Below are positions 22,801 through 44,168 of a stretch of DNA of 64,000 nt, in pieces; the first letter of the stretch is position 1; each line of letters starts with the position of its first letter. Source of the DNA: a virus; the IMG/VR virus record IMGVR_UViG_3300025853_000057, positions 12,565-76,564 of that record; one strand, given 5' to 3'. Made by a program: the position numbers and the translations under genes. The notes below the pieces were generated by a model, which saw only the letters and a program-made list of their open reading frames with translations, made no database searches and was not told where the DNA came from.

Positions 22801-25800
22801 AACTCTGGAGTTATTTCTTCACCCTTGGTTAACTTATCAAATAAGCTAACCATAGCATTGAAGTTCTCAGTAAATACTTCTCCTTGCTTAGTAAGGACAA
22901 GATTTCCATTCTCTATAGCAACAAAAGAAGGATTTAAAAGCTTTACATGGTTAAAATTATCTATACTGAACTTTGAACCATCAGGCATAGTAAACCTGTT
23001 AGGGTCAGCTAAACCTCCTATCCTTACCTTCTTACCTTTGTATGTTACATATACATAAGCTCCTTTACCTGTCTGTCCTGTAACACCTTTAGTAATTTGA
23101 ATAGCAGGATTTCTATCACTAGAAAATTGCACACCACCTTCTGCATAGTCTTCTATAACTACAGTCATAGACTTAGCTATTTCAGCAGGAGTCATATTTC
23201 CTAAAGCTTCTTTACCTTCAGCATCTACAAAATCATCAGATATAAATACTTCAGATATGCTAGAAGAAGTAAACAGAATAGGAAGACTTTTTTCAGAAGT
23301 AGGAGAATTTTCTAAGTTTTTAATTAAAGCTTCTATATCACCAATAAATTTTTGCAGTTTTCCAGACTCTAAATACTCATTAAAAGCTGCTTGGTTTTCA
23401 GTACCAGTAAGACCAGCTCTACGCTTTAAAGCTTCTAACTTTTCTTTAGCATATTTTAACTTAGCTTTAGTCTTACCAATTTTTACATCTAAAGTATCTT
23501 CTTTAGTGTAACTAGGAGGCATGCCTTCATTAAACTCTTTAATCCATGCAGCTACAGCAGGATTTGCTTGTTCCTGCTCTTGACCTAAGTCAGGTAGTTC
23601 TTCTTCTTCCTCAGTAGGAGTTTCAGCAGTCATAGAACCATCAGGGTCACTAATAGAAGCTTTGTTAAGACGCTTGCCTATAGTATCATATAGTTTCTCT
23701 TGAACATTTCTAAGTTTATATTCTTGAGCTACCATAGGATTTACGCTAATACCAGCAGTAGTCATACCTAAATCAGAAGCTGCTTGCTCTTCTATAGCTG
23801 TAAACTTAGCAGCTTCATCTAAAAGCTCTTTAATACTATCATTAAAAGCTTCAGCTCCTTTCTTACTAGCTAGTCTATTAACTTCATTAACAAACATTTG
23901 CCTTCTAGCAGCAAGCTTTTCTAAGTCTTTTAATTTTTGCTCTATATCAAATTTATTATCAAAATAATACTTTTCTACTTCTTTCTTTAAGTTAATTACA
24001 TTATCTACTTCTTCTTTAAAAGCATCAAAGTCCAAGTAAGATGCTTCTATATCTGCTTTTTTAGTATTAGCTTTTCTAGCTTCATATTCTCTTTCAACTA
24101 AAACATCTACCCTAGCTCTTTGTTTTTCTACTTTAGCAGTAGCTTCTTCTATAGCTTTTTCATTAGGGCTTTTCTTAAGTTGTTCTTTAGTAAGTTTAGC
24201 TTCAGCTTCTTGAAGGCTATTTAATTCTTCTTCATAGGTATTTAACCACCCTTTACTACCTTTTACTGCGTTATTAAAACGCATAGCATCCATTAGACTT
24301 CTTTCGTCTATATTTAAGTTTTCAGCTATTTCCTTAGCTAAAGATGCTTCTCTTTCATCTAAGTTGTCTACAGAAGACATACTATAGGCTAAAGCTCTTC
24401 TAATGTCCTCATTAAAAGCAGAACCTACTGTCTTAGCTTTATTTATATTTTTTCTTATAGACCTTGCTCTTGTAAGCAAGCTTTGTTTTACTTCATCTTT
24501 TCTACGAGAAATATCTTCGTCTGACATATTTTCATAGCCAAACATGCTCATAAAATCTTCATCACTAAGCTCTGAGGTATATTCCTCAATCATAGTTTCA
24601 ACAGCTTGGTAATCTCCAAGTCTCATTCTAAACTCTACTTCAGAGAAGAAGGCTTCATGTTCAGCGTTTTTAGCACTAAACATATCTCCACTCTCTAGAG
24701 CTTCACTATATTCTTGATTAGCTTTATGTTGAGAAGCTACTTTTTCAACTAAGGCTTTTATTCTGTCTTTAGGATTAGAAGCATCAGCTTCTAAAATATA
24801 TTCATCTCTAAGAGGGTCTAATTTATCTTTACCTAGAGATTCCCAAATACCTCCTTGCCATCCTAAACCTTTGCCTGTAGAAGAAGGTCCTACAAAACCT
24901 GCACCACCAATGATAGCACCAAGAATACCTTCTTTCCAACCTTCTTTAGAACCATAAGTTTCTGCAAGACCTTTAGCAAAAGATTCTGCTAAATCTACTT
25001 GTTCTTGTTTGTTCTCTACATCTAAGTATCCTGCTACATAGTCTAAAGCTGTAGCATTGATAGTACCTTGACCCATTTCTTCAAAGATGCCTTCTGCTAC
25101 AGGTCTTTCTGCTACATTATATACTTTGTTAAAAGCTTTTCTATAGTTGCTTTGATAATCAGATTTTTTAATATACTCCTGTTTCTTAAGTTCTTCTATA
25201 GGAGTGTTAGTCCTTTTAGAAGCTCTAGCTAATTGTTTGTTAGATAGGTTTTCTGTCTTTGTTAAACCCTTAGCTACTTTATCTTTTTCTTGTTTTAATG
25301 CTCTACCTATTTTTCCTGGAAGTTTAGGACCAAATGTAGTAGGTAGTGTAATCATGTTACCTACACTAACTAAAGCTGAGTTAGCTGCAAATACACCATT
25401 AGCTACATTATAGATTTTATCCATAGCTTCAGCTAACTCAACTTCTGAAGGCTCTCTACCATTTTCTTTTATAAAGTCTTCAATAAATTGAGTTCTAGCT
25501 TCATCTGCATAGTGCCTAGCTTCTACACCAGCTTCATAGAATGTACCAGTACCTATCTTCCTTAAACCTCCTAATACCTCGTCTGCTGTATTTAAGTTGC
25601 CTAGTGTGTTTAATCTTCTAGTAGCATCTCCTACCTTAGAAGTTTTAGTGAAAGCTTTTAAAGCTCTAGTGGTTCTACCTAATGCGACAGGAGTAGCCAT
25701 ACCTGCTGTTAGCATTTCTGTAAGTACAGCACCAGCTACAAAAGACATACCTGATAATACATCATTAGCCCAAAAGTTAGCTGTAAACATTTCTCGTAAT

Positions 25801-26372
25801 AGGCTATAATCTTCAACTTCCTTTCTTACATAGTTAGGAAGATACTCATCCATAGCAGCATTAGCATCATCTAAAGCTCTTTGGAATGCATTATCATAAA
25901 CATTCTTAAAACTTCCTGTAGCTGCCCCATAGACTAATCCAGGAATCATAAGTAAACCTCCAGCTACATTAGTTGCTGTTTTTCCTAAAAACTTAATACT
26001 CCCATTAGCCCATTGGTCTGCTACAGATTGGTCTTCTGCAAACAGGTCTTCAATATCTGCACCTATATATGGAGTTTGTCCAGTTTTTTCTACATACTCT
26101 CTATACCTTTCAGCAGCTTCACCTGTTAACCTCTTAGGTTTAAAAGCAGGGTCTGCTGGAGATAATATAGGTTCTTCTCCTGTAGATTCAAAGAAGTCTT
26201 GTTCAGGGTAAGCTTCTTCAAATTCTTTAATTCTTTCATATTGTTTGAATTGTTCCTCCATTGGAGAAACATTAGGAGCATAAGTATTAAAGAAAGCATC
26301 ATCATTAGTATTACCAGCATTAGGATTATCAATGTATTCCCATTCGCCAGTAGCTTCGTTAAATTCCCACAT
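10893..26372 (-). CDS. giant virion-packaged RNA polymerase polyprotein (phi14:2 gp66-like) with two zincin HExxH domains and a C-terminal ADP-ribosyltransferase-like domain
   Basis: 5159 aa; GVRIPTDDKHSM and GADFDVD catalytic motif (16095-16109); HEAFH (~20750) and HEFAH (~12485); VYHGT...FDKF...YF (~11350). Confidence 0.9.
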   Translation of the reverse strand: MWEFNEATGEWEYIDNPNAGNTNDDAFFNTYAPNVSPMEEQFKQYERIKEFEEAYPEQDFFESTGEEPILSPADPAFKPKRLTGEAAERYREYVEKTGQTPYIGADIEDLFAEDQSVADQWANGSIKFLGKTATNVAGGLLMIPGLVYGAATGSFKNVYDNAFQRALDDANAAMDEYLPNYVRKEVEDYSLLREMFTANFWANDVLSGMSFVAGAVLTEMLTAGMATPVALGRTTRALKAFTKTSKVGDATRRLNTLGNLNTADEVLGGLRKIGTGTFYEAGVEARHYADEARTQFIEDFIKENGREPSEVELAEAMDKIYNVANGVFAANSALVSVGNMITLPTTFGPKLPGKIGRALKQEKDKVAKGLTKTENLSNKQLARASKRTNTPIEELKKQEYIKKSDYQSNYRKAFNKVYNVAERPVAEGIFEEMGQGTINATALDYVAGYLDVENKQEQVDLAESFAKGLAETYGSKEGWKEGILGAIIGGAGFVGPSSTGKGLGWQGGIWESLGKDKLDPLRDEYILEADASNPKDRIKALVEKVASQHKANQEYSEALESGDMFSAKNAEHEAFFSEVEFRMRLGDYQAVETMIEEYTSELSDEDFMSMFGYENMSDEDISRRKDEVKQSLLTRARSIRKNINKAKTVGSAFNEDIRRALAYSMSSVDNLDEREASLAKEIAENLNIDERSLMDAMRFNNAVKGSKGWLNTYEEELNSLQEAEAKLTKEQLKKSPNEKAIEEATAKVEKQRARVDVLVEREYEARKANTKKADIEASYLDFDAFKEEVDNVINLKKEVEKYYFDNKFDIEQKLKDLEKLAARRQMFVNEVNRLASKKGAEAFNDSIKELLDEAAKFTAIEEQAASDLGMTTAGISVNPMVAQEYKLRNVQEKLYDTIGKRLNKASISDPDGSMTAETPTEEEEELPDLGQEQEQANPAVAAWIKEFNEGMPPSYTKEDTLDVKIGKTKAKLKYAKEKLEALKRRAGLTGTENQAAFNEYLESGKLQKFIGDIEALIKNLENSPTSEKSLPILFTSSSISEVFISDDFVDAEGKEALGNMTPAEIAKSMTVVIEDYAEGGVQFSSDRNPAIQITKGVTGQTGKGAYVYVTYKGKKVRIGGLADPNRFTMPDGSKFSIDNFNHVKLLNPSFVAIENGNLVLTKQGEVFTENFNAMVSLFDKLTKGEEITPEFIKKTFFVKSRFGYNSLKDELLENRPSLEEYLDNSKKEVSVAYSYKEKGKEVSKSDTIVVSRRADRLDIYVKEGNSWRLLNEEDKAYRAIQTLYENSIKANPNLEGVNSQFALLYPGSTKGTVGMASLGFPSVTAPLEEDGVPEIVDGILKAAEEQVTNKKSRKEGEEIKPVTVKDSSGNNLFLSIKTSAQDKDGNYIKSNSSEAEISVVSYEDNDTVKVQLQLSSPGSKEKAFKAFINLKLSVKDGKLYFFNEEIKSLKTLIEKINGQIKYYHEKNPENQGVLDTAGKVIKIGNILKKIDAVNDENTAENLSQIKLHSAPVFKLTLNARSRTYKKKVEKEESGQDTSKSDRDKAKQAFKEKIKGIPIEQLKDKAQVDMLLQALKQQHGLTDEDIAELRSAIKGRLLLSSGEAVPGGEKPESTATDTKDDVEKAQRQLDNVESKLNPNANHPKFNVGQKHDVGNIYDVRDFKDERKDTTQEGVDVITKIHKPAEVDADGNLTERAEVEVTFFDSYEQAEEFINAQYNKYKAIAEERLAKANAELAPLESTPTQQNIPQDTIGNLQNQIDEGLALGTLVENSPEHIELERRLAELKSKDEGDEAPFSISQTEAKEKIDIKKAEQTLARMLNMRTPENPNGIFSMDDVRNLLNNVRNNGITWGAFYNNVIYLSKKAGVGTEYHEAFHAVFRTLLSPTQINSYYFAARKAYGNPTLQDLNDLRNSSSMFADLTRLELEKLWLEEQMAEAFKKYALEQEQKPKGILGILYHKIKKLLGFVKSNKNDLDILFQDIYSGKFRTAKPYNKLQSFRKPAFALLKREPYYNNQTKSLERGFLNKDQSERIINTLAIKALQLKSEKGSLSKRDILDLIRDMSSNYYSVENFRTEIDALVKSNKPKAVQIVGKIRNISKSLSIPENEKLLTDEIEMRLQVFDINTVEENAQEESFADDAPERAFDVNIAEVGGFVQLSKEMRKFIAFSSQAIDEFGFGELADLSNDKFQMASNPYTIYTAVQRGLQSTHPKDMLSKLKNLARTNSNVAAFYDHLTTNINLQLEDLGFENFDSRDSELQKDIEVLQQSALFSTFASAFALDKAEQLVVLYDKAKKDFKTFKSNTRDVNITQFNEWAKAFINSGRNNMQYREENLELIKNIRSVFTDSENIESEENLSNAIQSIKNAFSDLGINLSEGYIRFSILSNHVNTLEQYISKPETPNEKDFYEGLLEEVYLFSDVKPLTKDDLTGLSSSIAAQNNPFVKNLNESDTKTDRGAIGRLQAIAENNAVFDESVGTTTFQNAKGQDIYSFIQKTYLISETKKWNKRTETAKELLRAIRDKVSDDEGALIAQEMFKYEGTPYPYYIAKKFYQAIKHNPYLNGVEYQVNSDGNTTSTLITEDNEAYSLAVLKQLQTFLMDGLRTTSLSEVEVDGEAEFVEDTYKNSDASSYAELDGGGIDLVKLSMFAESIGNKLRKLFRLPGARGLAKDNRAKERTLAPFITQVNSDKNTQTATNLPVHEFVNRDGELNTLGVEFLFRDILQEYEDLANVQQEIKFILENDGVDNNGNPVFDIEGYHYKLREDGTKDYTKGKGHDFFLYKAALQKYSPELYQQLLADAREGKPLTKERLEPFIQSYAQDLFGQYLETLASPARSLIRKEETTSDEKKTQEEEKSEEAVAEEAETVTVYKNKMLPKFYEKNDGTVNITRLKEYFFNDMLGSMAFGNLIHGNLKMSYKDMVDFIKRMSKTIAAGPPLGTGTTKVAVVRSVEAKDRFDKDSVDAANIKDLDSQDTTDAQNIGTLSWYRRKYLTSLGKKTKAVDEIYNRLEKGYKLTPSEIKTLKDAGALVMPRKIVGTNRWFYDKTSIVTLLRSQTSYVETKEDREQLDYLYDLLFDARRVNDVNRMQELYKQIHAIWKPIPSERLNHDTLNYLESTGTDILAYDSSMKGAKINVGSISGNNEVGFIVDSEGFDVDDEAFKEQVKTDNLKSKIIDPIQALALLFSEQKSTTKVSVFGTTTTLGDLQDAFENLVSLRTEEGFKEMQKIISSNDKPRYTYLLKLFKESLMQTGADSYLIEMVSAMEGAEDLPKYNLNMPSTIDKLESMFLSFVSKNVLKNKAPGHKFTLRTDHGTGVMELDGKIITDKEFRSNPSKYAGKVTTRRLAYRKKDADGKYYTEIKISAQFAEHLNLKKGDELPPEILEMYGVRIPTDDKHSMGYFKVVDFLPMETGNEIIMPYEILKLSGADFDVDAEYVRVVDYFIDSNDKIHWFGQYLKADNVEEAIKQAREEYIREKSQLYDVKENTKEALLKNKKYQEALEALNNLKSELNKLKPSAEEAKQQIAEILSSIDEAFEEGNIEDADVTETSDDNLDTSLKGIKDFSELTALMLEENVARGNLKEIQRVLNQYKSKIQNTKNFIRTVRTEESIKQLDKLGYSASEDAFNQRFSEVISANRSSFEKGNISAINPLTITEINNLLVPVAGAFIYNDTNEDISNEVTSTEAFDKLEKRLREAGVKDNTEVTGIYDPLNKTNASVNNATGTKNIGPVAVFNLIFQRLAKAGVSLSAEWMEAKEVAETFKEYAKGFKLSRNQKDDSILNNVGIRVNNLIGQNLNAMTDNGKDPKASKFNMAYQLLGTSLTQMGLGKGFNEVVLSGMQPAVVQLVNLINADSSPIKEGEYSQGFFKLVAKTLGEYQGKDTEEVALTEDNLIQALLYAQDPTSSTLTEAQYNFIQVNALQTIKLFKEVSDFLRNFTDIIGLAKGAKPTFSENYNVQESIKNLGLRVVLRKDGNPQNLNDYSIEHVEGYAARDYPLDLLDLVKKDKILSTNLKAQTAIINHESPKFFLLEAKPAKDIVEVLKTSLRPNTMAIDDKAKKIRKSLLSFLSMRAYKHQYANKVKGLNLTKLFDPSYLHELYAEVSALDEVGSNEFLGALLPEVIPFKNKATRLDGHSLYKMSLNTRTKNNSDYVQKLMDSFRELYTSENPKARLFAARAFYYLLMKDGGLFKNDSFIRQIAPHYLTNISNSLDEVQDLFAGLSNKTFVRVFGISKGELIQEFVDLYARYQPNGYDLRTTSSKNLFKDYSKDEEFKAFVEELKQDKEAGNITKEQLIQIIKQNSPVFKDDRNGVIRFDLYAGVEVKPSGAFSSNDKMKMGINAQAIKGTGLVSKGSNGKLNYPAYFKIVEFSPEGIPTSRIYRLYAVQKQRSKVSIKDGLPEASDTVTLNKDGNLFNEGTDVNGVAAYYKAVNPILTKEISPFFWTIEDINAGVEALDYIREEKEEQTTTTAEEQQAEATTLSPELQNFLNQLSSVSKAEVKPETKATPTEKTPVEKKEEPSPEITKEYLLKLFDQLPNSDNKNFMKPMFNSFLSDINENKDKIESILKNLGGKNPFQSKSSEKQTINREQLSSLLDKLSAKFGIDWEFDTSIPGLGQFKNGRVLINPDKARLDTPFHEFAHPFVAIVKLQNPLLYKNLTKQVNNSELGKKTLARVQKNYPELSYEEQVEEAIVDLIGQYAADLESVKQEKGLWNAIKTFLRKVSEYIKSLLADSKKAIIPSELNPETTLEDLASMLVVDNPVNLGRLANRTYRSTPKARGTIKPGVQELFDSNPELANQVYEALGFVKGINELKVQDFKTKIGEATQLEEQVNKLKKYVEQFRTAYFVVNIDEDIQSDIFFIKEEAEEALKEYNNRGNLKFELETTVGLTEKEIEIYKDVIDFLAENPDQNPLNEEEYTGAKKLEAYLKYKHEITSKQIRKVLIGNKEKERLTDFITINLELSQAQKIEGESGLPNNLVELELSKITPQQKQQALQLYSQYLDTIFPDSKVKDIVYHGTNAKFDKFDKSFYQSGADYIYFGKLNTPGFKSLSRTITAIINLKNPSTFIDNNINKVNNDDGFIENYSKNFIQSLSEEQFEQGEFLNQYGVEKPEQIHILGSQKDIEGFRGFVNNQLQAPMESTEDRATTLFSTFVNVNDADVLELLNNCN

Positions 26373-26430: not shown

Positions 26431-26793
26431 TCAATAGTTAAACTCTACATGATAGTGAGGAACATTACCTTTTACTTCATGGTATAAGACTTCAGCACCA
26501 TATTTAGCTTTCCAAGCTTTACCTTCAGGAGTTAATAACCAGTCCCAAAATTTTAAACCTTCGTCATCATCTCTAATATCTATAGCTTTACCAGCTACAT
26601 GAGGAGGATTTTTAGGTGCAGAAGATGAATCATCTTCATATAAGGCATCTTGCTCTTCTTGAGTTCTATAGCCACTGGTAACAGTAATACCAAAAGGTAT
26701 TTCTTCTGTAGGTGACTTTAAATAGTCAGTTATAGACTGCTGTACTTCAGCAGTTTTATATTTTACCTTCTGTCTCTTGCCTGAGGTCTCTGC
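26431..26793 (-). CDS. peptidase M15 (LAS Zn DD/LD-peptidase) domain, predicted -1 frameshift extension of the 857-aa protein
   Basis: 120 sense codons read by hand: ...GITVTSGYRTQEEQDALY...PHVAGKAIDIR...PHYHVEFNY*; no ATG/GTG/TTG in frame; in-frame TAG just upstream of the slippery site. Confidence 0.85.
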   Translation of the reverse strand, partial: AETSGKRQKVKYKTAEVQQSITDYLKSPTEEIPFGITVTSGYRTQEEQDALYEDDSSSAPKNPPHVAGKAIDIRDDDEGLKFWDWLLTPEGKAWKAKYGAEVLYHEVKGNVPHYHVEFNY

Positions 26794-29336
26794 TTTCCCA
26801 CACTACTGGAGGAACCTCCTTGTCCTCCAGCTAATAAAGTTCCTAAATACCCTAGATAAGTTCTAGCATCATCAGCATTTTTAATATTTGTTGGGTCTAA
26901 GACTTTACCTTGAGCATTTCTAATACTACTTACCTCTATTACTTCACCATTAGGGGCAGTTACATTAACTTTAATAGTAGCTTGTGCAGTTCTAGTAAAG
27001 TTGTATATATATCCTCTAGTATCTCTAATAGGAACAGAAATGCTTTCTGTATTTGTAGGGTCTAATGTAAACATAGTATCATAGGCAATATCTAAAGTGC
27101 CTAATTCACTTTCATTAAACATTAGATTTGTTCTTAATAGATAAGATGCATCTCTTACTCTGGCATCATTATCTTTAGACATCTGTATAATAACTTCCCT
27201 AAAAGCAGGAGCTTCTGTATCTATTAAAGTTTCAAATGTAGCTGTCTTACCATCTTCATCTGTTACAACAATAAGATTTGTAGCTTGTCCACTAGAGTTA
27301 GCATTTATATAAGCAGCAGTTACTTTTGGATTATCTCCAAGTCCTCTATCTGCAAATATTTTTTCTAATGAGTTGTTTCTTTCATCCTTACCATCTCCAC
27401 CAGCAGCCTTTTGCAGGTCTACTAATAAAAGATTAGGGTCGTCATTATATTTTTCTTTTAAGTTACTTAAAAAATTACCTACAGCTCCTTTTTTACCAGA
27501 GCTACCAATGTTTATTTCTCTAATTCCTATCCTCTCACGTTCAGATTCACTTTGAAGTTTTTCTACATTTTTCGTAAATTTAGATGTAAAACCTACAATA
27601 TCTGCTAAAGGTTTAGTTAAGGTAAAGGTATTAGTACCTGTATAATTGTACTGCTCAGTTACAAATCTCCAAGCTCCTTCCTTGCTATCATATTTTAAAA
27701 TCCCTAAGTCTTTTAATTGAGATAAACCTTCACTATTTTCTACTTGTAAGTTAGAGTATTTCTGATGTAGTAAGTTTCTAGTAGCAAAATCTCTATTCAT
27801 TAGAGACCTTTTATCAAAACCAGTTTCTTTAGATACTAACTCTAAACCACTAAAAGACTTTTTAATAATTTCATCACTTAAACCAGACTGTTTACCAGCT
27901 TCTGTAAATATAGTTTCAAGCCGTTCTGCTTTTTCTGAAGCTTGCTTAAAGGTACTATAATTTGTAAGAATACTATTTACAACATCTAAATCCCCTGTTC
28001 CTATATTTGGATTTTGTTTTAAGTCTACTATAGTCTGAAGCATTTCAGTTTGTAGAGATTCTACTTCATCTCTATTAAAACCAAATTGGGTCTGTAACCT
28101 ACCGCCTTCTTTAAAATAGTCATAAGGATTAGCCATCATTTCTACAAAAGTGTCGGGTAAATTGTAAGCTTGCTGTAATCTTGCAGCTAGTTCAGGATTA
28201 CTATTTTTTACTTCTTCATACTTTTTAATTAACAATTCATCAGCTCTTTCTTCAAAACTTCCTGTAAAAGCTTCTCTAAGTAAAGGAGCATATTCTGGGT
28301 TTGTCATAGCGTTACCTACTGCTGTGGATACATAAGTAAGAAGGTTAGAATAAGACTCTTGTTCAATTTCTTGAGCTACAGTAAGGTTTTTAGAAATATC
28401 AACATCCTGAGTAGAAGCTCCAGTACTTACCATCTCTAAAGAGTAGTTATCATCTTCATCACTTCCAGTACCTCTACTTCCACCTCCAGGTACATTAGTA
28501 GCTTTTCCAGGAATATCTTCTTCATTTCTATAGAAGCCTTTAGATGCTACACCTGTAACCAGATTTTTAATATCTTCAAAAGAGTTTAAACCTAAAAATT
28601 CTTTTATATAACGATACTGGTCTTTATCTCCTTGTAGTACTCTATTAGTATATTCATCAATTGCTTCTTGAGTAAAAGTATTATCTAAATTTAAGTTAGT
28701 TATTTTTTTCCCATCAGGTGTTAACCAGATTAATTTACCTTTCTCATCGTAGCTATAACTACCTTCTCCATAGATTTTTTTTATAGAAGGTTTTAAGTAA
28801 CTAAGTAATTCGGTTGAAACAGTTTCTTCTACTTTATCTTCAATAGGAGTTTTAATATCTGCTTCAGAAATTTCAGAAGGGTCTTTCCATCCCCATTGAC
28901 CTGTAACAGGGTCTTGCTTCATTAAGTCAGCAAAGTAAAGAGATGCTGCGTTAGGCTTTCCTAAGTAAGGAGCTACATTAGCTTCATATAATTTATAATG
29001 CTTTCTAATCCTATTAAGCTCAGGGTCAGTCATAAATTCTCTATTCAAAGCTCCTAGCTGACCTGTAACTCTACCATAAGAGCCTTTATTTTTTTCAAGC
29101 TCTTCTTCTAAATTAGCTATAGAAGTGCTAAACTTATCTCTATAAGCTTGAGCCATACCTGTTTCTTCATGCCAAGGAGCAGCCTCTATAGCAAACTCTG
29201 ATGTTCCTAATTGAGTTCTAGCAGTATCTAAACCCTTCTGCTTAGTTTCCAGGTTTTGCTGCATGAACTCCAAAGGCATATCTATGAATTGAGATTCATA
29301 GGGAGTATCTACTGGTCGTATAAATCTAACTGCCAT
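26763..29336 (-). CDS. virion ejection/cargo protein
   Basis: 857 aa; MAVRF...YESQFIDMP N-terminus; lies between the cargo polyprotein and vRNAP; ends in a flexible GGQGGSSSS linker. Confidence 0.7.
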   Translation of the reverse strand: MAVRFIRPVDTPYESQFIDMPLEFMQQNLETKQKGLDTARTQLGTSEFAIEAAPWHEETGMAQAYRDKFSTSIANLEEELEKNKGSYGRVTGQLGALNREFMTDPELNRIRKHYKLYEANVAPYLGKPNAASLYFADLMKQDPVTGQWGWKDPSEISEADIKTPIEDKVEETVSTELLSYLKPSIKKIYGEGSYSYDEKGKLIWLTPDGKKITNLNLDNTFTQEAIDEYTNRVLQGDKDQYRYIKEFLGLNSFEDIKNLVTGVASKGFYRNEEDIPGKATNVPGGGSRGTGSDEDDNYSLEMVSTGASTQDVDISKNLTVAQEIEQESYSNLLTYVSTAVGNAMTNPEYAPLLREAFTGSFEERADELLIKKYEEVKNSNPELAARLQQAYNLPDTFVEMMANPYDYFKEGGRLQTQFGFNRDEVESLQTEMLQTIVDLKQNPNIGTGDLDVVNSILTNYSTFKQASEKAERLETIFTEAGKQSGLSDEIIKKSFSGLELVSKETGFDKRSLMNRDFATRNLLHQKYSNLQVENSEGLSQLKDLGILKYDSKEGAWRFVTEQYNYTGTNTFTLTKPLADIVGFTSKFTKNVEKLQSESERERIGIREINIGSSGKKGAVGNFLSNLKEKYNDDPNLLLVDLQKAAGGDGKDERNNSLEKIFADRGLGDNPKVTAAYINANSSGQATNLIVVTDEDGKTATFETLIDTEAPAFREVIIQMSKDNDARVRDASYLLRTNLMFNESELGTLDIAYDTMFTLDPTNTESISVPIRDTRGYIYNFTRTAQATIKVNVTAPNGEVIEVSSIRNAQGKVLDPTNIKNADDARTYLGYLGTLLAGGQGGSSSSVGKQRPQARDRR
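26793..26799 (-). other. -1 programmed ribosomal frameshift slippery heptamer G GGA AAG
   Basis: X XXY YYZ in the correct phase (GTG GGA AAG), nine codons before the TAA of the 857-aa ORF; same heptamer as lambda G/T. Confidence 0.8.
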
Positions 29337-29340
29337 TTTA

Positions 29341-32300
29341 CTATTTTATTTCTGTGTAAGTACCATCAGGATTTTTCTTATATCTTCTACCATCATCTGT
29401 TTCAATAATATTCTCATAAGTAGCAAGTCCTGAAGGAGCTAATTTAGGAATTAATTGCCCATTTACCACATCATATCCTATTATGCTAAAATCACCTGTT
29501 TTCATGCTATTAACAATCATATCTTGCATTCGTTTAGCTCCCATGTCTTTAGAAAATCCTTGGACATTACTACCTATACCTTCTGCTCCTTTCATACCTA
29601 GCTGCCATCTGTTAGCTATAGATTGGTCTTTAAGTAAAGCATTCTTTTCAGCTTGTGCAGCAGCTAATTGAGCTTCTTGGTTAGCAATGCCAATGTTACT
29701 AGTATCTATACCATATCTAGTTTTAGCTAAAGCCTCTCCTAAGTTCATAGCCATACTAGGACTAGCTACTGCCATATTAGATAAATAAGAACCTTGTGTA
29801 GGTGCACCTCTTCTAAAGCCCTCTCTAGTATTAGCTAAAGCTTGGTTACCAGCAGCTTGTTGTAAAGCTACAGGAGTATAATCATACCTTTGAAGTTTAG
29901 GAGCAGCAGTATAAGTAGGGTCTGGAGCAAAAGCAGCAGCAGCTATATTACTTAGAGGCCCTACCATAGAACCTGCTGCACCAGCAATGTAAGTATCCAT
30001 AGGAGATTTATAATCTTTAGGGCCTTTTAAAGTAGGCTTACGTTTTTGTGGTTTTTCAAAAGAAAGAGCTTTAAATTCTTCTAAAGAAGGGCCTTTAACA
30101 GTATAATCTAAAGAAGTAGGTATTTTTATAGGCTGCGAAGTAGGTATTTTTATAGGCTGCATTAATGAGCTAGATTGATTACTATTTTTACTAAAGTACT
30201 GGGGAGCAAAAGCTTTAACTTCATTTACTCTCTTAGTCCACTCAGGTAAATTAGTATTAGCTCCTGTTGTATTCCTATAACTTCTAATTTTTTCAGCAGC
30301 AAATGGGTCATTTAAAGCATCACCCATTGCCATAACATCAGCACCATATTTTCCCCAAGCTTCGTCTACTTTAGCAGGGTCTAATTTCCCTTGTGAATAC
30401 ATTTGAAGTTTTTGTTCAGGAGTTAACTTCCCGGCTGCTACCATCATAGATGCTCTAGGGTCTTCACTATTAAAAGCAAAATCAAAAGCCATAGCTTGTT
30501 GTGAATCAGGCATTTCATAAAGACCATATTTATTAAAATATTGATTTATACCAGCATTAATAGCTTGATTTCTACCTTCTTCAGTGTTAGCATATTGTGT
30601 GGCTCCAGGTTGTGTAAATCCATAATTAGAGTAACCTAATCTAGTTTCTCGGTCTAAAGTATTACCTACAATATCATATATTCTATCATAGTCATCAGGA
30701 GTTGATACTTTTTCTGTAGAATACATATTTTCAGGAACTAAATTTCCTTGATTTTGCTGAGGAAACAACTTATCACCCATTTGTTTAATTACTCTGCCTC
30801 CATATCTCATCATACCAGGGGGTTGAGCTTGTGGAGGCATTTGCTGTTGCATAGCAGGTTGTTGTTGTCCTTGCATTTGTTGGGCTACCATTTCTACTAT
30901 TTGAACAGCTTGCTGTTGTGGTACTCCCATTTCAATTAACTTTCCTACAACTTGCTCAGGTGCTACATTTTGTTGCAGCATTTGTGCTACTTGCTGAATA
31001 ATCTGCTGTGCAGCTTCTTCTTGACCTCCACCTTGTTGTGGCATTTGTTGTGGTTGCATCATGTCTCCTCCCATTTGGTAGTAACCTCCATCTTCTTTTG
31101 CAAAATTTCTAGCAAAGTTAGCTTTTTTTCTCATAGCTGGGGAGTACTTACCTTCAGGTGCATTTAAAATAGTACTAGCTGCTTCTTGTACACCCATACC
31201 CATTTTAGAAGCTTGGGCTTTAAAAGTACCTCTTTTAGAAGGGTCTATATGAATACCACCTTGAGCATACATCATAGGGCCACCATAGTTATACATAGCA
31301 GGTTCCATATCCATATAACCACCATCTTCCCAAGTAGCTCTAGCATAAGCTCTAAAGTATGGATTCTTAGCTAAGTTCTTTTTATGTCTAGCGTAGAAAG
31401 CTTTCTTACCATATTTAGATTTACCTCTTTCTCCTAGCTTAGGGTCACCAAAGTATTTCTTAGTTCCATCAGGACCAGTAACTACGTGAGTTTTTCCTTT
31501 TCTGTCATTAGACCTTCTAACAGTATAACCACCTTTTCCATACTCCATAGTATCATCATAATCCATATATCCACCTACTTCCATATTAGATTTAATTTTT
31601 GCCTGTACATATTCAGGCAAAGCTCTAAAGCCAGGATTATCAAAACTACCACCTTCAGCATAGTAACCACCATAAGCTTTTTCAGCAGCTTTAATCTTAC
31701 GTTCTTGCTCAAGCATTTGCTTAGTAGGTTTTTTACCACTACCTCTATTAGCTCTGATGTTATCCCATAAGCCTCTTCTAGAATAAGAGCCATCAGCTCT
31801 TTTAATCATTTGACCACCTCTTGCCATTTTTTCTTCTACAAAAGGTGCTTGTGTTTGTATAGGCTGGTCTACTAACATTTGTTGAGAACCATCAGCACCT
31901 GTAACCATTATAGGGTCATTATTATTTGTAGGAACTACTTGTGTAGGTCCACTGCCAGGAAAAGCAATACTATTAGCATCAGGATACATATTATATCCAG
32001 CTTGTTGTTCTTCAGGTGAAGCTGCTACAACATTCTTTTGCTCTTCTAATTGCCTGTCTATATTATGGGCTTTAATAAGCTTCTTCATCTCACTATCTAT
32101 GAAATTTAAGGTAAGCTTATCATTAGGACGAAGTTTATCTCCTCCCTGTTTTTTAATAGCTTTACTTATGTCTGCATAAGATTTACCAGCATACTTTTCA
32201 GAAATACCTGCTTCTCTTAAAGCTGTTTTAGAGGCTTTAATTTTTTCAGACATTACATAGTTTTCTGGAGTGTAAATAGTTTCAGGACCTTCTACTTCTA

Positions 32301-34416
32301 CATCTGGGCCTTGACCATTATTAGGTAAAGTAACACCACCTTCTGCATGTGAAGGGCCTCCTATTTCTGTTAAACCTAAGTTTTGATTTAACATTTGCCC
32401 TCCTTGTTGATATCTAAATCTGCCTCCTCTAGAAGCCATAAATGTTTTCATATCTTTAAAATTACCCATTAATCCTGGAATTTGTTGTATAGCTTGTCCA
32501 ACAGCATCTCCTTCAGGGCTTCCTGAGAAACCTGAAACTGCTTTACCTGCTCCTTTTACAGATTGAGTTACTGCTTGCTCAGGGGATGCTATACCTAAAG
32601 CTGCACCACCTATAGCACCTACTGCATTACCTACACCTGCATAACCTTGTTGTTGTTGTGCAGCTTCTCCTGTAGTTCCTGCTGCTCCTTGTAGAGCTTT
32701 AAAGCCCATATCTGTAAGCTCATCAGTAGCTCCCTTTGTAGCAGCATCTAATAAACCTTCACCTACACCATATAAACCTGCCATAACATCTTCAAACACA
32801 GAAGGCTCATCTACAGCACCTCTTCTCATTCTATCTCTGTTTAAGAATGAAGCACTAGTAGGTGTAGTTAAAGAACCACCCCTTTCTTTTTTATTTTTTC
32901 CTTTAAGATAGTTTGATTTTACCGCATATTCAGGAGTTGTTCCATATTTATTATAAAAATCTCTATCTGTATATATTATTTCTTTACCATCTTCAATTAC
33001 TGACCACCTAGTTCCATCTTTTGTCCCTATCATTGTGGGTGTTGGAACAGTAAATTGTTGTGGTTCATAATCACTAGAAGTAGGTTTTTGATTAGTAGAA
33101 CTTTGATAAGTTTCCCAAGCAGCTTGTGAGTTAGGACCCCATATACCATCTATTTTACCTGTATATAATCCAGCTTCTTTTAATAGTTCTTGTTTTTTAG
33201 CATTTTCATATTCTTTAGTACTTTTTATAATTACTTTTTGTGCTGGTTTTTTAAAGAAAGGGTATGTTGCTCTATTTCCTTTATTTTCATAAGACTCCCA
33301 TGTTGGGTTATTTGTATTTGATTGTGGATACTCTACATTTATATGTCTTAAATGTCCAGATTTATTAACAGCATCAATAACTGCATTTTTATAAATAAGA
33401 CTTTTATTATGCAAATCTAAACTATCTGCATAAGCTTGATACCTTTCCATTCCTGCTGGGTCATTAGGGTCTACATACATAGTAGGTCTGCCACCTCTTT
33501 GAAGTTTTATTCTACCACCTAATTCTTTAAAACTATCATATCCTTCTTGTATAGATTTATCTTTAGCTTTTTGTACACTAGTTCTAAAGCTTTTCCTATT
33601 TCCTGGAACTTCTACATTTTTATGGCCTTGTAACCATAAATCTTCTAATGATAGCCTACCCTCAGCATAATCTTTAAGTACTGCTCTTGACTGAGATAGA
33701 TTTATTAAAAATAAAACATATTGCTGTCTTGGAGAAAGTTCAGTTGCAGATTTAGCTTTTAGTATCTCAGGGTCAGGTTTAAGCTTTAATTTATTAGCTA
33801 CTATTTTATATCTATTTTGAGCAGTCTCTAAAGAATCGTTTTCAAACTGAAATATACCTCTTCCTGGACCACCTCCATGTTGTAGTTGTCCAGGGTCCAT
33901 TGTACCAGCAGATTCATGGTAACCAATAGTATCAGCCGTTCTTCCCCAGAAATCTCTAGTACCACCTCTAGTATCTACTAAAAAATCTAATGAGTTTTCT
34001 AAATCTAAAACGTCAGATTTTTTCTTTTCTTCATATTGAGCTTTTTGTAATTCACCACCTGTTTGTTTTTTATCTACATATTGTAATTGGTTATCTCCAA
34101 AGTAACCTTCAACATTTGGAACTACATCAAAACGTCTATTGTTTTCTGGATTTAGTGCATAACCTTGCATGTACTCCATCCAAGCTGTAGGGTGTTGTTT
34201 AGATTTTAACCACATACCATTAGTACTATCTACTGATGGCCAATGACCTGTTTCATCTGGGGTATAACCTAACTCTAATGCTTTCTGCATGTTGTAAGTA
34301 CCACCACCCTGCATAACAACAGGATTAAGACCTAGAGCTTTCCTAAAAGACATCTCTCCAGGATAATCAGATTCCTTTTTCCTTCTAACAGGTTTTTTAA
34401 TTCTTTTCTTAGCCAT
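29341..34416 (-). CDS. modular virion cargo polyprotein with xxGG-delimited modules (lysozyme-like, PG-binding, GH108-like, basic peptides, Gln/Met-rich)
   Basis: 1691 aa; HES...GPGRGIFQFE; LYTGKIDGIWGPNS; GPSHAEGG; NYGFT...PDSQQAMAFDFAFNS...WTKRV; about 18 xxxGG motifs. Confidence 0.7.
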   Translation of the reverse strand: MAKKRIKKPVRRKKESDYPGEMSFRKALGLNPVVMQGGGTYNMQKALELGYTPDETGHWPSVDSTNGMWLKSKQHPTAWMEYMQGYALNPENNRRFDVVPNVEGYFGDNQLQYVDKKQTGGELQKAQYEEKKKSDVLDLENSLDFLVDTRGGTRDFWGRTADTIGYHESAGTMDPGQLQHGGGPGRGIFQFENDSLETAQNRYKIVANKLKLKPDPEILKAKSATELSPRQQYVLFLINLSQSRAVLKDYAEGRLSLEDLWLQGHKNVEVPGNRKSFRTSVQKAKDKSIQEGYDSFKELGGRIKLQRGGRPTMYVDPNDPAGMERYQAYADSLDLHNKSLIYKNAVIDAVNKSGHLRHINVEYPQSNTNNPTWESYENKGNRATYPFFKKPAQKVIIKSTKEYENAKKQELLKEAGLYTGKIDGIWGPNSQAAWETYQSSTNQKPTSSDYEPQQFTVPTPTMIGTKDGTRWSVIEDGKEIIYTDRDFYNKYGTTPEYAVKSNYLKGKNKKERGGSLTTPTSASFLNRDRMRRGAVDEPSVFEDVMAGLYGVGEGLLDAATKGATDELTDMGFKALQGAAGTTGEAAQQQQGYAGVGNAVGAIGGAALGIASPEQAVTQSVKGAGKAVSGFSGSPEGDAVGQAIQQIPGLMGNFKDMKTFMASRGGRFRYQQGGQMLNQNLGLTEIGGPSHAEGGVTLPNNGQGPDVEVEGPETIYTPENYVMSEKIKASKTALREAGISEKYAGKSYADISKAIKKQGGDKLRPNDKLTLNFIDSEMKKLIKAHNIDRQLEEQKNVVAASPEEQQAGYNMYPDANSIAFPGSGPTQVVPTNNNDPIMVTGADGSQQMLVDQPIQTQAPFVEEKMARGGQMIKRADGSYSRRGLWDNIRANRGSGKKPTKQMLEQERKIKAAEKAYGGYYAEGGSFDNPGFRALPEYVQAKIKSNMEVGGYMDYDDTMEYGKGGYTVRRSNDRKGKTHVVTGPDGTKKYFGDPKLGERGKSKYGKKAFYARHKKNLAKNPYFRAYARATWEDGGYMDMEPAMYNYGGPMMYAQGGIHIDPSKRGTFKAQASKMGMGVQEAASTILNAPEGKYSPAMRKKANFARNFAKEDGGYYQMGGDMMQPQQMPQQGGGQEEAAQQIIQQVAQMLQQNVAPEQVVGKLIEMGVPQQQAVQIVEMVAQQMQGQQQPAMQQQMPPQAQPPGMMRYGGRVIKQMGDKLFPQQNQGNLVPENMYSTEKVSTPDDYDRIYDIVGNTLDRETRLGYSNYGFTQPGATQYANTEEGRNQAINAGINQYFNKYGLYEMPDSQQAMAFDFAFNSEDPRASMMVAAGKLTPEQKLQMYSQGKLDPAKVDEAWGKYGADVMAMGDALNDPFAAEKIRSYRNTTGANTNLPEWTKRVNEVKAFAPQYFSKNSNQSSSLMQPIKIPTSQPIKIPTSLDYTVKGPSLEEFKALSFEKPQKRKPTLKGPKDYKSPMDTYIAGAAGSMVGPLSNIAAAAFAPDPTYTAAPKLQRYDYTPVALQQAAGNQALANTREGFRRGAPTQGSYLSNMAVASPSMAMNLGEALAKTRYGIDTSNIGIANQEAQLAAAQAEKNALLKDQSIANRWQLGMKGAEGIGSNVQGFSKDMGAKRMQDMIVNSMKTGDFSIIGYDVVNGQLIPKLAPSGLATYENIIETDDGRRYKKNPDGTYTEIK
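30113..30160. repeat. perfect 24-nt tandem duplication (QPIKIPTS x2)
   Basis: gaagtaggtatttttataggctgc occurs twice head to tail. Confidence 0.95.
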
Positions 34417-43685: not shown

Positions 43686-44168
43686 CTAATCTTCTTTGAA
43701 GGACTTTACCTCTGTAAAGATTTTCTTTATACCTCTAATAAAAGCAAAAATTCTATCTGTAATACCTTTACCTGTGGCCCATTTAATCTTTTCATCTACA
43801 CTAGAATACTCTATAGAAACAAGTAGAAGACATGCTAGAGACGTTATTAAATGTTCTTTAGGAAAATACATCATTACTGTTTCATTTAAGACTAGAGAAT
43901 CTAAGATATAAGTAAACAAGAGGGCTATTGAATAAGCTATGATTTTATTAGTTAGTCCTATTCTAGTCTTTTTGCTAGTAATAAGCTCTCCTTTTTTCTT
44001 AGCATACCATCTGCCTACATAGGTATCAATAAGAGTAGCAAATATCACTACAATAATCAAAGGTACTAAAGGAGCAAAAAAACTTATTAGCATTGAAAAA
44101 AAGGATAGAATTGTTGTTTTTAAGTTAAAAGATTCCATTTTATTTATATTTATCTTTGAATTTTCCAA
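43686..44168 (-). CDS. holin
   Basis: Multiple TM segments, D...G pattern, E.SS.DE motif, next to endolysin. Confidence 0.7.
   Translation of the reverse strand: MENSKININKMESFNLKTTILSFFSMLISFFAPLVPLIIVVIFATLIDTYVGRWYAKKKGELITSKKTRIGLTNKIIAYSIALLFTYILDSLVLNETVMMYFPKEHLITSLACLLLVSIEYSSVDEKIKWATGKGITDRIFAFIRGIKKIFTEVKSFKED

What the first reader, a model, noticed from the sequence alone, without database searches (positions are those of the whole stretch)
26431..26830. Hidden -1 frameshift adds an M15 peptidoglycan peptidase to a virion ejection protein
Seen: the apparent gap between the 857-aa gene and vRNAP is a 120-codon open frame (AETSGKRQKVKYKTAEVQQSITDYLKSPTEEIPFGITVTSGYRTQEEQDALYEDDSSSAPKNPPHVAGKAIDIRDDDEGLKFWDWLLTPEGKAWKAKYGAEVLYHEVKGNVPHYHVEFNY*). 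It has no ATG/GTG/TTG and is closed by TAG two codons upstream of an in-phase G GGA AAG heptamer (26799-26793) in the 857-aa ORF. The heptamer follows a GGQGGSSSS linker. An AGGAGG lies about 15 nt upstream, inside a CTGGAGGA/TCCTCCAG hairpin. Known: TSGYR, HxxGxAxD and HxH are M15/LAS Zn-peptidase signatures; GGGAAAG is the lambda G/T slip site; upstream internal SD-like sequences can stimulate -1 shifts. Inference: two isoforms (857 aa and about 968 aa) are made, so only some of the ejected subunits carry a wall-cutting enzyme. Standard gene callers would miss this.
Basis: partly seen in the sequence, partly recalled or inferred. Interest (0 to 1): 0.9.

Follow-up and report, generated by a model that had tools for sequence, protein, structure and literature searches.

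The report
Frameshift adds wall peptidase to phage cargo
In an uncultured crAss-like phage, the gene for a large protein packed in the virion ends on a slippery sequence, so some ribosomes very probably slip back one base and append a small cell-wall-cutting enzyme; distant relatives keep the same slip site, which gene callers miss.

Summary
The minus-strand 857-aa ORF (29336-26763) carries an in-phase G_GGA_AAG at 26799-26793, 9 codons before its stop. The -1 frame is open from there for 122 codons (to 26434) with no ATG, GTG or TTG.

The same layout appears in all 9 loci (8 lineages) for which I could get DNA, with upstream-protein identity as low as 23%. Each has the in-phase GGGAAAG, a GGAGGT 9, 12 or 15 nt upstream, a 0-frame stop 7-12 codons later, and a long open -1 frame. 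Twenty-nine of 32 full-length family proteins end in GG..GK plus a short tail.

The window's extension folds (pLDDT 83) as a LAS/M15-type zinc peptidase with H-x6-D and H-x-H motifs. In two lineages a different, possibly SLT-like, domain takes its place, and in one the extension is 695 aa.

Pfam identifies the two upstream genes as the crassvirus muzzle protein and cargo protein 1, so the 857-aa gene sits in the cargo block. A separate holin cassette lies elsewhere.

Best reading: programmed -1 ribosomal frameshifting gives 857-aa and 968-aa isoforms (confidence 0.85). An assembly error is excluded. Independent initiation is unlikely. The roles of the SD-like motif and the hairpin are unproven.

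I found no published description. This scan has reported the same phenomenon in five other genomes.

The parts
26763..29336 (-). 0-frame gene, 857 aa (short isoform). It is the putative virion cargo protein in the position of crassvirus cargo protein 2.
   Evidence: ORF list and translation. 32 full-length homologs. It lies between a crAss_CARG1-containing gene and the giant RNAP-like gene. It has no Pfam or PHROG hit of its own.
26793..26799 (-). Slippery heptamer G_GGA_AAG in 0-frame phase, the proposed -1 shift site.
   Evidence: It is identical and in phase in L001, L002, L003, L007, L009, L010, L011 and L024. The preceding codon varies (V, M, G or P) but always ends in G. P(NNG GGA AAG given Gly-Lys) = 0.012 per lineage from this genome's codon usage.
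26815..26820 (-). SD-like AGGAGG, 15 nt 5' of the heptamer. A second GGAGG lies at 26824-26828.
   Evidence: GGAGGT is invariant in all 9 loci at spacings of 9, 12 or 15 nt. The Gly-Gly it encodes is invariant in the 16-protein alignment. Its function is inferred only.
26806..26830 (-). Possible 8-bp hairpin CTGGAGGA / TCCTCCAG with a 9-nt loop that holds the second GGAGG.
   Evidence: MFE -15.1 kcal/mol, z -3.0 in the window. 78.6% of cells are paired across loci, with an A-U/U-A swap at one pair. In the relatives z is only -0.1 to -1.5, and L011 has no hairpin.
26434..26799 (-). -1 frame extension, 122 codons from the heptamer; 120 residues are new after Gly-Lys. It is a LAS/M15-like zinc peptidase domain. 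The stop TGA lies at 26433-26431.
   Evidence: Translation. AF2 pLDDT 82.9 with residues 10-123 folded. Top structural matches are ChiX 5opz (Z 7.1) and LysECD7 8q2g (Z 7.0), and all 50 listed entries have the LAS/Hedgehog/DD-peptidase fold. Weak HMM hits are VanY E 6e-4 and phrog_465 endolysin 5.5e-6.
26578..26601 (-). H-x6-D motif (HVAGKAID), the putative zinc ligands His68 and Asp75 of the -1 product.
   Evidence: Invariant in the 19-sequence alignment.
26449..26457 (-). H-x-H motif (HYH; His116 and His118), the putative catalytic and zinc-ligand histidines.
   Evidence: Invariant in the 19-sequence alignment.
29341..34416 (-). Context: 1691-aa gene with a crassvirus cargo protein 1 domain.
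   Evidence: PF25725 crAss_CARG1, E 1e-8, 35.8 bits against cut-off 27.
34416..39176 (-). Context: crassvirus muzzle protein, 1586 aa.
   Evidence: PF25731 crAss_MUZ, E 1.7e-135. phrog_28748 virion structural protein.
10893..26372 (-). Context: giant 5159-aa gene downstream, in the position of the crassvirus RNAP-related cargo genes.
   Evidence: ORF list. A DFDVD motif lies at residue 3422. It hits phrog_32390, of unknown function. No PDB sequence hit, so the RNAP identity was not verified here.

Best explanation
Proposed mechanism: programmed -1 ribosomal frameshifting at G_GGA_AAG near the 3' end of a crAss-like phage cargo-protein gene. Most ribosomes read on for 9 codons and stop, giving the 857-aa form. 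A fraction slip back one base on the heptamer (the tRNA-Gly and tRNA-Lys re-pair on GGG AAA). These ribosomes continue in the -1 frame for 120 more residues, giving a 968-aa form whose C-terminal extension is a small LAS/M15-type zinc peptidase.

Shown here:
- the recoding cassette is conserved at nucleotide level;
- the linker is under coding constraint in the -1 frame;
- the extension has the LAS fold and the zinc motifs;
- the gene lies in the cargo block.

Inferred:
- the shift actually happens, and at a low, fixed ratio;
- both forms are packaged;
- the peptidase cuts peptidoglycan locally during entry rather than at lysis.

In relatives the same cassette joins other domains to the protein. 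It therefore acts as a conserved junction behind which the enzymatic module is exchangeable.
For: 1. Conserved cassette. All 9 loci with DNA (window, L001, L002, L003, L007, L009, L010, L011, L024; 8 lineages) have the in-phase GGGAAAG. Upstream-protein identity is 78% at the closest and 23-46% for the others. In each, the 0-frame stops 7-12 codons later and the -1 frame stays open for 119-695 codons.
2. Selection on nucleotides, not amino acids. The codon before the heptamer varies (V, M, G, P) but always ends in G, Gly is always GGA and Lys always AAG. The chance per lineage from this genome's codon usage is 0.012.
3. Protein tails. 29 of 32 full-length family proteins end in GG..GK plus a short tail.
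4. The linker is coding. Spacer and linker lengths differ between lineages only by whole codons. The chance of 22 or more open -1 codons is 0.02 in this genome. KV.YK..EVQ is conserved upstream of any start codon. Window-versus-L007 differences in the 12-codon linker fall at codon positions 1/2/3 as 3/0/5.
5. The fold needs the linker. Residues 10-33 of the AF2 model have pLDDT 83-89, and the alignments to the 125-133-aa endolysins LysECD7 and ChiX start at model residue 2-9. A product started at residue 23 would therefore be truncated.
6. No ATG, GTG or TTG in the window's -1 frame.
7. Whole-collection pattern scan. GGAGGTNCCTC-N3-9-GGGAAAG matched 9 places in all of IMG/VR, and 5 of them lie at this position of this gene family.
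8. Internal negative control. The genome's other in-phase GGGAAAG is followed by only 5 open -1 codons.
9. Context. The two upstream genes are the muzzle protein and cargo protein 1, and a DUF5675 gene overlaps a holin gene elsewhere. The M15 domain is therefore not next to the holin gene.
Against: - No direct evidence of the shifted protein.
- No conserved downstream stimulatory structure.
- The hairpin exceeds shuffles clearly only in the window.
- Start contexts lack SD and the terminase's relatives infect Bacteroidota. If the host is a Bacteroidia, its ribosomes are reported blind to SD, and the prfB shift there works without SD-ASD pairing (PMC10798248). The conserved GGAGG may then not act as an SD.
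- Many relatives have a Met at the position of the window's Ile23, and gene callers-102-aa ORFs from it.
- Pfam M15-type models score below their gathering cut-offs.
- Structural Z of about 7 is middling on the tool's own scale.
- I found no in-frame fused homolog.
- Three family members lack the GK tail, and no DNA was available for them.
Confidence: 0.85

Rival explanations
1. The peptidase is a separate small gene, translated by independent initiation inside the -1 frame. In relatives it would start at the Met aligned with the window's Ile23, and in the window at the non-canonical ATA or by termination-reinitiation after the 0-frame TAA. On this reading the heptamer is incidental.
For: Gene callers report 98-102-aa ORFs in many relatives, most starting at the aligned Met (MTDYL, MTPYL, MTPKL and similar). 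L007 has ATG there. Stand-alone M15 endolysins of 127-129 aa exist in other phages (L004, L005).
Against: - The Met count is biased, because only ORFs with a start get called.
- In DNA loci found without gene calling, the aligned residue is I, I, M, K, A, I or V.
- The window, L001 and L011 have no canonical start anywhere in the frame.
- It does not explain the invariant in-phase heptamer. Nor does it explain the always -1 frame relation, the open and conserved linker upstream of the Met, or the short 0-frame tails.
- A product starting at residue 23 would lack a folded N-terminal strand and helix.
- The L009, L010 and L024 extensions have other domains behind the same cassette.
- Both routes could coexist in lineages that have the Met.
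Confidence: 0.08
2. The frames are really one: a 1-nt assembly or sequencing error, or a recent inactivating indel (pseudogene), split an originally in-frame fusion.
For: A single-base change near short G and A runs would fuse the frames. Notes from other windows of this scan say that some relatives encode the fusion in frame (e1-3422350, e1-6021674). I could not reproduce that here.
Against: Nine independently assembled loci from different samples have the same -1 offset at the same heptamer, although they differ at most other positions. A decaying pseudogene would not keep 119-695 open codons, invariant zinc motifs and third-position-biased substitutions. Raw reads could not be examined.
Confidence: 0.02
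3. The frame change is made at the RNA level, by transcriptional slippage of the RNA polymerase on the G/A runs, not by the ribosome.
For: The result (a subset of products in the -1 frame) would look the same in genome sequence. The phage probably brings its own unusual RNA polymerase.
Against: From established knowledge, known slippage sites are homopolymer runs of about 7-9 or more. Here the runs are G3-G5 and A3. What is conserved is the phase of the heptamer relative to the 0 frame. That matters for tRNA re-pairing but not for a polymerase.
Confidence: 0.03

Closest known systems
Phage lambda G/GT tail-assembly-chaperone -1 frameshift, and the conserved tail-chaperone frameshifts of long-tailed phages (Levin et al. 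1993; Xu, Hendrix and Duda 2004; own knowledge)
   Same: The heptamer G_GGA_AAG is identical. The shift lies near the 3' end of a virion-module gene and gives a minor C-terminally extended isoform at a fixed ratio. The shift site is conserved while the sequences around it diverge. No strong downstream structure is needed.
   Different: The gene family, the virus order (crAss-like podovirus) and the role all differ. Here the extension is an enzyme (LAS/M15 peptidase, or another domain in relatives) on a putative packaged cargo protein, not a tape-measure-binding chaperone domain. There is a conserved GGAGGT 9-15 nt upstream.
T7/T3 gene 10A/10B, and Ig-like domains added to phage capsid or tail proteins by -1 frameshifts (Condron et al. 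1991; Fraser et al. 2006; own knowledge)
   Same: A -1 shift close to the stop of a structural gene yields a sub-stoichiometric longer virion protein with an added C-terminal module.
   Different: Those additions are non-enzymatic surface domains on capsid or tail proteins. Here the addition is a predicted peptidoglycan hydrolase on an internal cargo protein, and the appended module is swapped between lineages.
E. coli dnaX -1 frameshift (A_AAA_AAG with an SD-like element 10 nt upstream and a 3' hairpin; Larsen et al. 1994; own knowledge)
   Same: An internal SD-like GGAGG lies 9-15 nt upstream of a ..A_AAG slip site. That is the spacing range reported to favour -1 shifts.
   Different: There is no conserved 3' hairpin. 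The likely host phylum (Bacteroidota) has ribosomes reported blind to SD (PMC10798248), so this mode of stimulation is unproven here.
Virion-associated peptidoglycan hydrolases on ejected or internal proteins, e.g. the T7 gp16 lytic transglycosylase domain (own knowledge), and the crassvirus cargo proteins gp45/gp46 of PhicrAss001 (PMC10172136)
   Same: A wall-degrading domain is carried by a protein that is packaged and expected to leave the virion ahead of the DNA. The gene sits between cargo protein 1 and the RNAP-related cargo genes, as gp46 does.
   Different: In the known cases the enzyme domain is in frame and present on every copy. The PhicrAss001 paper mentions no peptidoglycan, peptidase or frameshift. 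Sequence homology of the 857-aa protein to gp46 was not shown here.
Small M15/LAS endolysins: LysECD7 (8q2g), Serratia ChiX (5opz), T5 L-alanoyl-D-glutamate peptidase (2mxz)
   Same: Similar size (about 115-135 aa), the same fold (Z 7.0-7.1), and H-x6-D plus a C-terminal His motif.
   Different: Sequence identity is 13-21%. Pfam models score below their cut-offs. The domain is not a free lysis protein next to a holin but a start-less extension of a structural gene.

Membership tests
Programmed -1 ribosomal frameshift site (X_XXY_YYZ type) | Slippery heptamer X_XXY_YYZ in phase with the upstream (0) frame | tested here: met
   G_GGA_AAG at 26799-26793, read as GTG GGA AAG in the 0 frame.
Programmed -1 ribosomal frameshift site (X_XXY_YYZ type) | Long open -1 frame starting at the heptamer, without its own start, encoding a real protein domain | tested here: met
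   122 open codons with no ATG, GTG or TTG. The maximum off-frame run in this genome's genes is 50 codons. The domain folds with pLDDT 83.
Programmed -1 ribosomal frameshift site (X_XXY_YYZ type) | Conservation of site, phase and frame relation in diverged homologs | tested here: met
   9 of 9 loci, 8 lineages, upstream-protein identity down to 23%. 29 of 32 protein tails carry GG..GK. Codon-level probability is 0.012 per lineage.
Programmed -1 ribosomal frameshift site (X_XXY_YYZ type) | Stimulatory element (3' structure or 5' SD-like sequence) shown to act | tested here: inconclusive
   GGAGGT is invariant 9, 12 or 15 nt upstream. No conserved 3' structure. The hairpin has z -3.0 in the window only. 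Host ribosomes may ignore SD (PMC10798248).
Programmed -1 ribosomal frameshift site (X_XXY_YYZ type) | Trans-frame protein product observed | not testable with these tools
Peptidase M15 / LAS zinc peptidases | Score above the curated threshold of a family HMM | tested here: inconclusive
   VanY PF02557 scores 20.0 bits against cut-off 25, and Peptidase_M15_2 scores 16 against 27. phrog_465 endolysin has E 5.5e-6. A profile of the domain reaches proteins that carry PF02557/PF05951, at E 3.9e-6 and 2.8e-4.
Peptidase M15 / LAS zinc peptidases | Zinc-binding and catalytic motifs H-x(3-6)-D and H-x-H | tested here: met
   His68, Asp75, His116 and His118 are invariant in 19 sequences.
Peptidase M15 / LAS zinc peptidases | Hedgehog/DD-peptidase (LAS) fold | tested here: met
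   All 50 listed VIA matches have this fold. The best are 5opz Z 7.1 (112 residues aligned) and 8q2g Z 7.0 (rmsd 3.5, 101 residues aligned). Foldseek probability is 0.97-0.99 with E about 1e-2. Z is middling on the tool's own scale.
Peptidase M15 / LAS zinc peptidases | Peptidoglycan peptidase activity and bond specificity | not testable with these tools
   Needs an enzyme assay.
Crassvirus virion cargo proteins | Gene in the muzzle - cargo 1 - cargo 2 - RNAP-related block | tested here: met
   crAss_MUZ E 1.7e-135 and crAss_CARG1 E 1e-8 on the two upstream genes. The giant ORF with DFDVD lies downstream. The gene order is that described in PMC10172136.
Crassvirus virion cargo proteins | Sequence or structural homology to PhicrAss001 gp46 (cargo protein 2) | tested here: inconclusive
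   No Pfam, PHROG or NCBIfam hit. The family profile has no PDB sequence hit. No tblastn hit in 50,697 GenBank phage records.
Crassvirus virion cargo proteins | Presence in virions and ejection into the host | not testable with these tools
   Needs virion MS or infection experiments.

The most novel reading that the evidence does not exclude
The GGAGGT-spacer-G_GGA_AAG cassette is an ancient, order-wide recoding socket of environmental crAss-like phages. It would be a fixed frameshift junction at the end of one cargo gene, behind which different entry enzymes are plugged in and exchanged: M15 peptidase, an SLT-like domain, or a peptidase plus a 560-aa module. Each virion would then carry only a few enzyme-armed copies. 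Its conserved 5' element (the GGAGG pair with a CCUCC partner) would stimulate slippage in hosts whose ribosomes are otherwise blind to Shine-Dalgarno sequences. That would be a new kind of 5' frameshift stimulator, or evidence that elongating Bacteroidia ribosomes can use their anti-SD.
Probability: 0.3. Interest if true: 0.85.

Novelty: new variant of a known kind. Interest (0 to 1): 0.72.

Why it matters
- **Annotation.** It would be the first recoding event described for Crassvirales-like phages. It affects annotation directly: the enzyme domain is either missed or called as a truncated orphan ORF of about 100 aa.
- **Entry biology.** The PhicrAss001 structure paper discusses no wall-degrading activity among the cargo proteins. 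This finding names a candidate wall-degrading cargo enzyme and suggests that its dose per virion is set translationally.
- **Evolution.** The cassette marks a module boundary where domains are swapped. This is a natural example of a ratio-controlled optional domain on a packaged protein.
- **Translation in Bacteroidota.** A strictly conserved SD-like element in a phage whose own genes lack SD gives a clean test case for whether, and when, Bacteroidia ribosomes use their anti-SD during elongation.

Tried and rejected
- **GenBank phages.** No match for the DNA, the peptidase or the 857-aa protein.
- **In-frame fused homologs.** A search of longer proteins with the peptidase found none. The distant homologs L013 and L014 (991 and 1033 aa, no GK tail) have no Pfam domain and no profile match to the peptidase. 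This is weak evidence of absence.
- **GTDB genomes.** No relative of the 857-aa family.
- **Alternative extension domain (L009 P0022, L024 P0057).** No Pfam, PHROG, NCBIfam or PDB sequence hit. The single-sequence AF2 model is poor (pLDDT 51.5) and its Foldseek matches are meaningless. The only lead is ESM Atlas neighbours that carry SLT (score 0.93, 160 shared features). No catalytic Glu is evident.
- **3' stimulatory structure.** None is shared between loci.
- **Upstream hairpin.** Pairing and one A-U/U-A swap are seen. Folding energies are not above shuffles outside the window, and the swap could follow from Ser/Thr and Gly codon choice. It is not claimed as functional.
- **Giant downstream gene as vRNAP.** Only a DFDVD motif and synteny support this. 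There is no PDB or Pfam hit.
- **Stop-codon reassignment.** Considered and rejected, because all long ORFs are intact under table 11.
- **Transcriptional slippage.** Rejected, because the homopolymer runs are short.


Full report
**1. Observation**

- The 857-aa ORF runs 29336..26763 and ends ...GGQGGSSSSVGKQRPQARDRR, with TAA at 26765-26763.
- The codons GTG GGA AAG place the heptamer G_GGA_AAG at 26799-26793 in 0-frame phase.
- In the -1 frame a TAG (26805-26803) lies two codons upstream. From the heptamer the frame stays open for 122 codons to TGA at 26433-26431, with no ATG, GTG or TTG.
- AGGAGG is at 26820-26815, 15 nt upstream of the heptamer, and a second GGAGG is at 26828-26824.
- CTGGAGGA (26830-26823) and TCCTCCAG (26813-26806) are perfect inverted repeats.
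- A slip would give 848 + 120 = 968 aa.

This is not chance.
- In the -1 frame of five large genes of this genome, open runs average 5 codons and never exceed 50.
- In-phase GGGAAAG occurs twice in 22,253 codons.
- The other copy (window 44483) is followed by only 5 open -1 codons, which makes it a useful internal negative control.

**2. Context**

The record is a single 76,564-bp virus contig with 33% GC and no tRNA genes.
- PHROGs identify the portal, large terminase and major head proteins.
- The terminase is about 35% identical to Crassvirales terminases from Bacteroides, Flavobacterium and Cellulophaga phages.
- The 1586-aa gene is the crassvirus muzzle protein (PF25731, E 1.7e-135). The 1691-aa gene carries the crassvirus cargo protein 1 domain (PF25725, E 1e-8).
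- The 857-aa gene follows them and precedes a 5159-aa gene with a DFDVD motif.

This matches the order muzzle gp44, cargo 1 gp45, cargo 2 gp46, RNAP-related gp47 described for PhicrAss001. That paper mentions no peptidoglycan, peptidase or frameshift (PMC10172136). 'Virion cargo or ejection protein' is therefore supported by synteny. Homology to gp46 is not shown.

A DUF5675 gene (E 1.4e-19) overlaps a holin gene (PF05105, above its cut-off) at 43686-44635. This looks like the lysis cassette, and the M15 domain is not part of it.

Gene starts in the window have A/T-rich upstream regions and no SD, as expected for Bacteroidota hosts.

**3. Comparative test of the frameshift**

DNA was obtained for eight further loci:

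| Locus | Identity to window (basis) | -1 frame product | How found |
|---|---|---|---|
| L001 | 78% (upstream protein) | M15-like, about 120 aa | |
| L007 | 77% (peptidase) | M15-like | |
| L002 | 58% (peptidase) | M15-like | |
| L003 | 60% (peptidase) | M15-like | |
| L009 | about 30% (upstream protein) | other domain, 185 aa | |
| L010 | 37% (upstream protein) | M15-like plus about 560 aa (695 aa in all) | |
| L011 | 28% (upstream protein) | M15-like | |
| L024 | 23% (upstream protein) | other domain, 171 aa | pattern scan, |

In all nine loci, window included:
- an ORF of about 840-890 aa ends 7-12 codons after an in-phase GGGAAAG;
- the -1 frame is open from the heptamer for 119-695 codons;
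- GGAGGT lies 9, 12 or 15 nt upstream.

The codon before the heptamer encodes V, M, G or P but always ends in G. Gly is always GGA and Lys always AAG. From this genome's codon usage (NNG 0.107, GGA 0.36, AAG 0.30), a Gly-Lys pair would be spelled this way with probability 0.012 per lineage.

At protein level, 29 of 32 full-length family members, some with E-values as weak as 2.6e-4 in the search with the 857-aa protein, end in GG..GK plus a short and variable tail. The exceptions are P0017, P0035 and P0038.

The pattern GGAGGTNCCTC-N3-9-GGGAAAG occurs at only 9 places in all of IMG/VR. Five of them lie at this position of this gene family.

Nine independent assemblies with the same -1 offset exclude an assembly error.

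**4. Is the linker translated?**

The rival reading is an independent small gene. Gene callers do report 98-102-aa ORFs in relatives, most starting at a Met aligned with the window's Ile23 (ATA). That sample is biased, because only frames with a start get called. In loci found by tblastn or by pattern, the aligned residue is I, I, M, K, A, I or V.

Upstream of that position:
- the -1 frame is open in every lineage, where the chance of 22 or more open codons is 0.02;
- length differences between lineages are whole codons;
- KV.YK..EVQ is conserved;
- window-versus-L007 substitutions in the 12 linker codons fall at positions 1/2/3 as 3/0/5, with 5 synonymous and 3 non-synonymous codon changes. 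This is the same style as in the domain proper.

The AF2 model built on 19 sequences (pLDDT 82.9) has residues 10-33 folded as a strand and two helices with pLDDT 83-89. Structural alignments to the 125-133-aa enzymes LysECD7 and ChiX begin at model residue 2-9. A product started at residue 23 would therefore lack part of the fold.

Independent initiation may coexist in lineages that have the Met. It cannot explain the cassette.

**5. What the extension is**

- *Sequence.* Models give only weak hits: VanY at 20 bits against a cut-off of 25, phrog_465 endolysin at E 5.5e-6, MepK at E 1.6e-3. A profile of the domain reaches proteins that carry PF02557/PF05951, at E 3.9e-6 and 2.8e-4.
- *Motifs.* His68, Asp75 (H-x6-D), His116 and His118 (H-x-H) are invariant in 19 sequences.
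- *Fold.* All top Foldseek and VIA matches have the LAS/Hedgehog/DD-peptidase fold. They include ChiX 5opz (Z 7.1), LysECD7 8q2g (Z 7.0, rmsd 3.5 over 101 residues), VldE, the Streptomyces DD-peptidase 1lbu, VanXY, VanY and LdcB.

I file it as a LAS/M15-like zinc peptidase by fold and motifs. It is not a member of any specific Pfam family, and its bond specificity is unknown.

In L009 and L024 the same cassette is followed by a different, helical domain of 171-185 aa. Its only lead is ESM Atlas neighbours that carry SLT. This is not established. In L010 the peptidase is followed by about 560 further residues with no family hit.

The junction is thus conserved while the appended module varies.

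**6. Mechanism, and what remains open**

The heptamer is the one used by lambda G/GT (own knowledge), which works without a strong stimulator. I found no shared 3' structure.

The invariant GGAGGT at 9-15 nt matches the spacing reported to favour -1 shifts in E. coli dnaX-type sites (own knowledge). However, Bacteroidia ribosomes sequester the anti-SD, and prfB frameshifting in Flavobacterium johnsoniae normally proceeds without SD-ASD pairing (PMC10798248). Its role here is therefore an open question.

The upstream hairpin shows 78.6% pairing across loci and an A-U/U-A swap. Its folding energy exceeds shuffles only in the window (z -3.0). In the relatives z is -0.1 to -1.5, and L011 has no hairpin. 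I do not claim it as functional.

Shift efficiency, packaging of both isoforms, and use of the peptidase at entry are all inferences.

**7. Novelty**

Full-text searches found no paper that links crAss-like phages with a frameshift or slippery site at this gene. They also found none that couples programmed frameshifting with a virion-associated peptidoglycan hydrolase.

The kind of event is well known: a -1 shift near the end of a phage structural gene that makes a minor extended isoform. New here are the gene, the virus order, the enzymatic nature of the appended module, its exchange between lineages, and the conserved 5' SD-like element in an SD-less phage.

This scan has already reported the same phenomenon on other DNA (e1-5324723, e1-3422350, e1-5851580, e1-6004519, e1-6021674). 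Two of those notes mention in-frame fused relatives, which I could not find here.

**8. Limits**

- No experimental data exist for any of these phages.

**Verdict:** observation confirmed; interpretation supported; programmed -1 frameshift at confidence 0.85.

Noticed in passing
window 43686-44635 (-): Probable lysis cassette. A 161-aa DUF5675 protein (PF18925, E 1.4e-19) overlaps by 19 nt a 160-aa holin (PF05105, 27.8 bits against cut-off 22.2). DUF5675 may be this phage's endolysin.
   Followed up: partly
window 44477-44483 (-): The genome's only other in-phase GGGAAAG lies inside the DUF5675 gene. The -1 frame closes after 5 codons, so it is a chance site and serves as a negative control.
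   Followed up: yes
L009:4047-4601 (+) and L024:1158-1670 (-): In two lineages the same frameshift cassette is followed by a different helical domain of 171-185 aa (shared motifs ALGKYD and YL(A/T)H.LG..GA) instead of the M15 peptidase. ESM Atlas neighbours carry SLT. No HMM or structural confirmation was obtained.
   Followed up: partly
L010:4341-6425 (+): Here the -1 frame runs for 695 codons: an M15-like domain, then a Pro/Ala/Lys-rich linker, then about 450 further residues with no family hit. It is a much larger frameshift-appended module.
   Followed up: partly
window 29262-29336 (-), residues 1-25 of the 857-aa protein: The N-terminal 25 or so residues (MAVRF..P..TPYESQF..MPL.FM) are almost invariant across a family that is otherwise 23-35% identical. 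This may be a packaging, targeting or docking signal.
   Followed up: no
proteins P0017, P0035, P0038 (no DNA available): Three family members lack the Gly-Lys of the heptamer in their tails (..ASNPQNF.., ..SMGEPLG.., ..SVEKDLEVLQ). They may use another slip site or have lost the shift.
   Followed up: no
window 10893-26372 (-): The giant 5159-aa ORF has HEAFH (aa 1871), DFDVD (aa 3422) and HEFAH (aa 4627). It also has a sub-threshold ART-PolyVal hit near the C-terminus (E 2.6e-4, 22 bits against cut-off 31).
   Followed up: partly
window, all gene starts listed: No Shine-Dalgarno sequences precede the genes; the upstream regions are A/T-rich. GGAGG is nevertheless over-represented on the coding strand (56 on the coding strand against 27 on the other).
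   Followed up: partly
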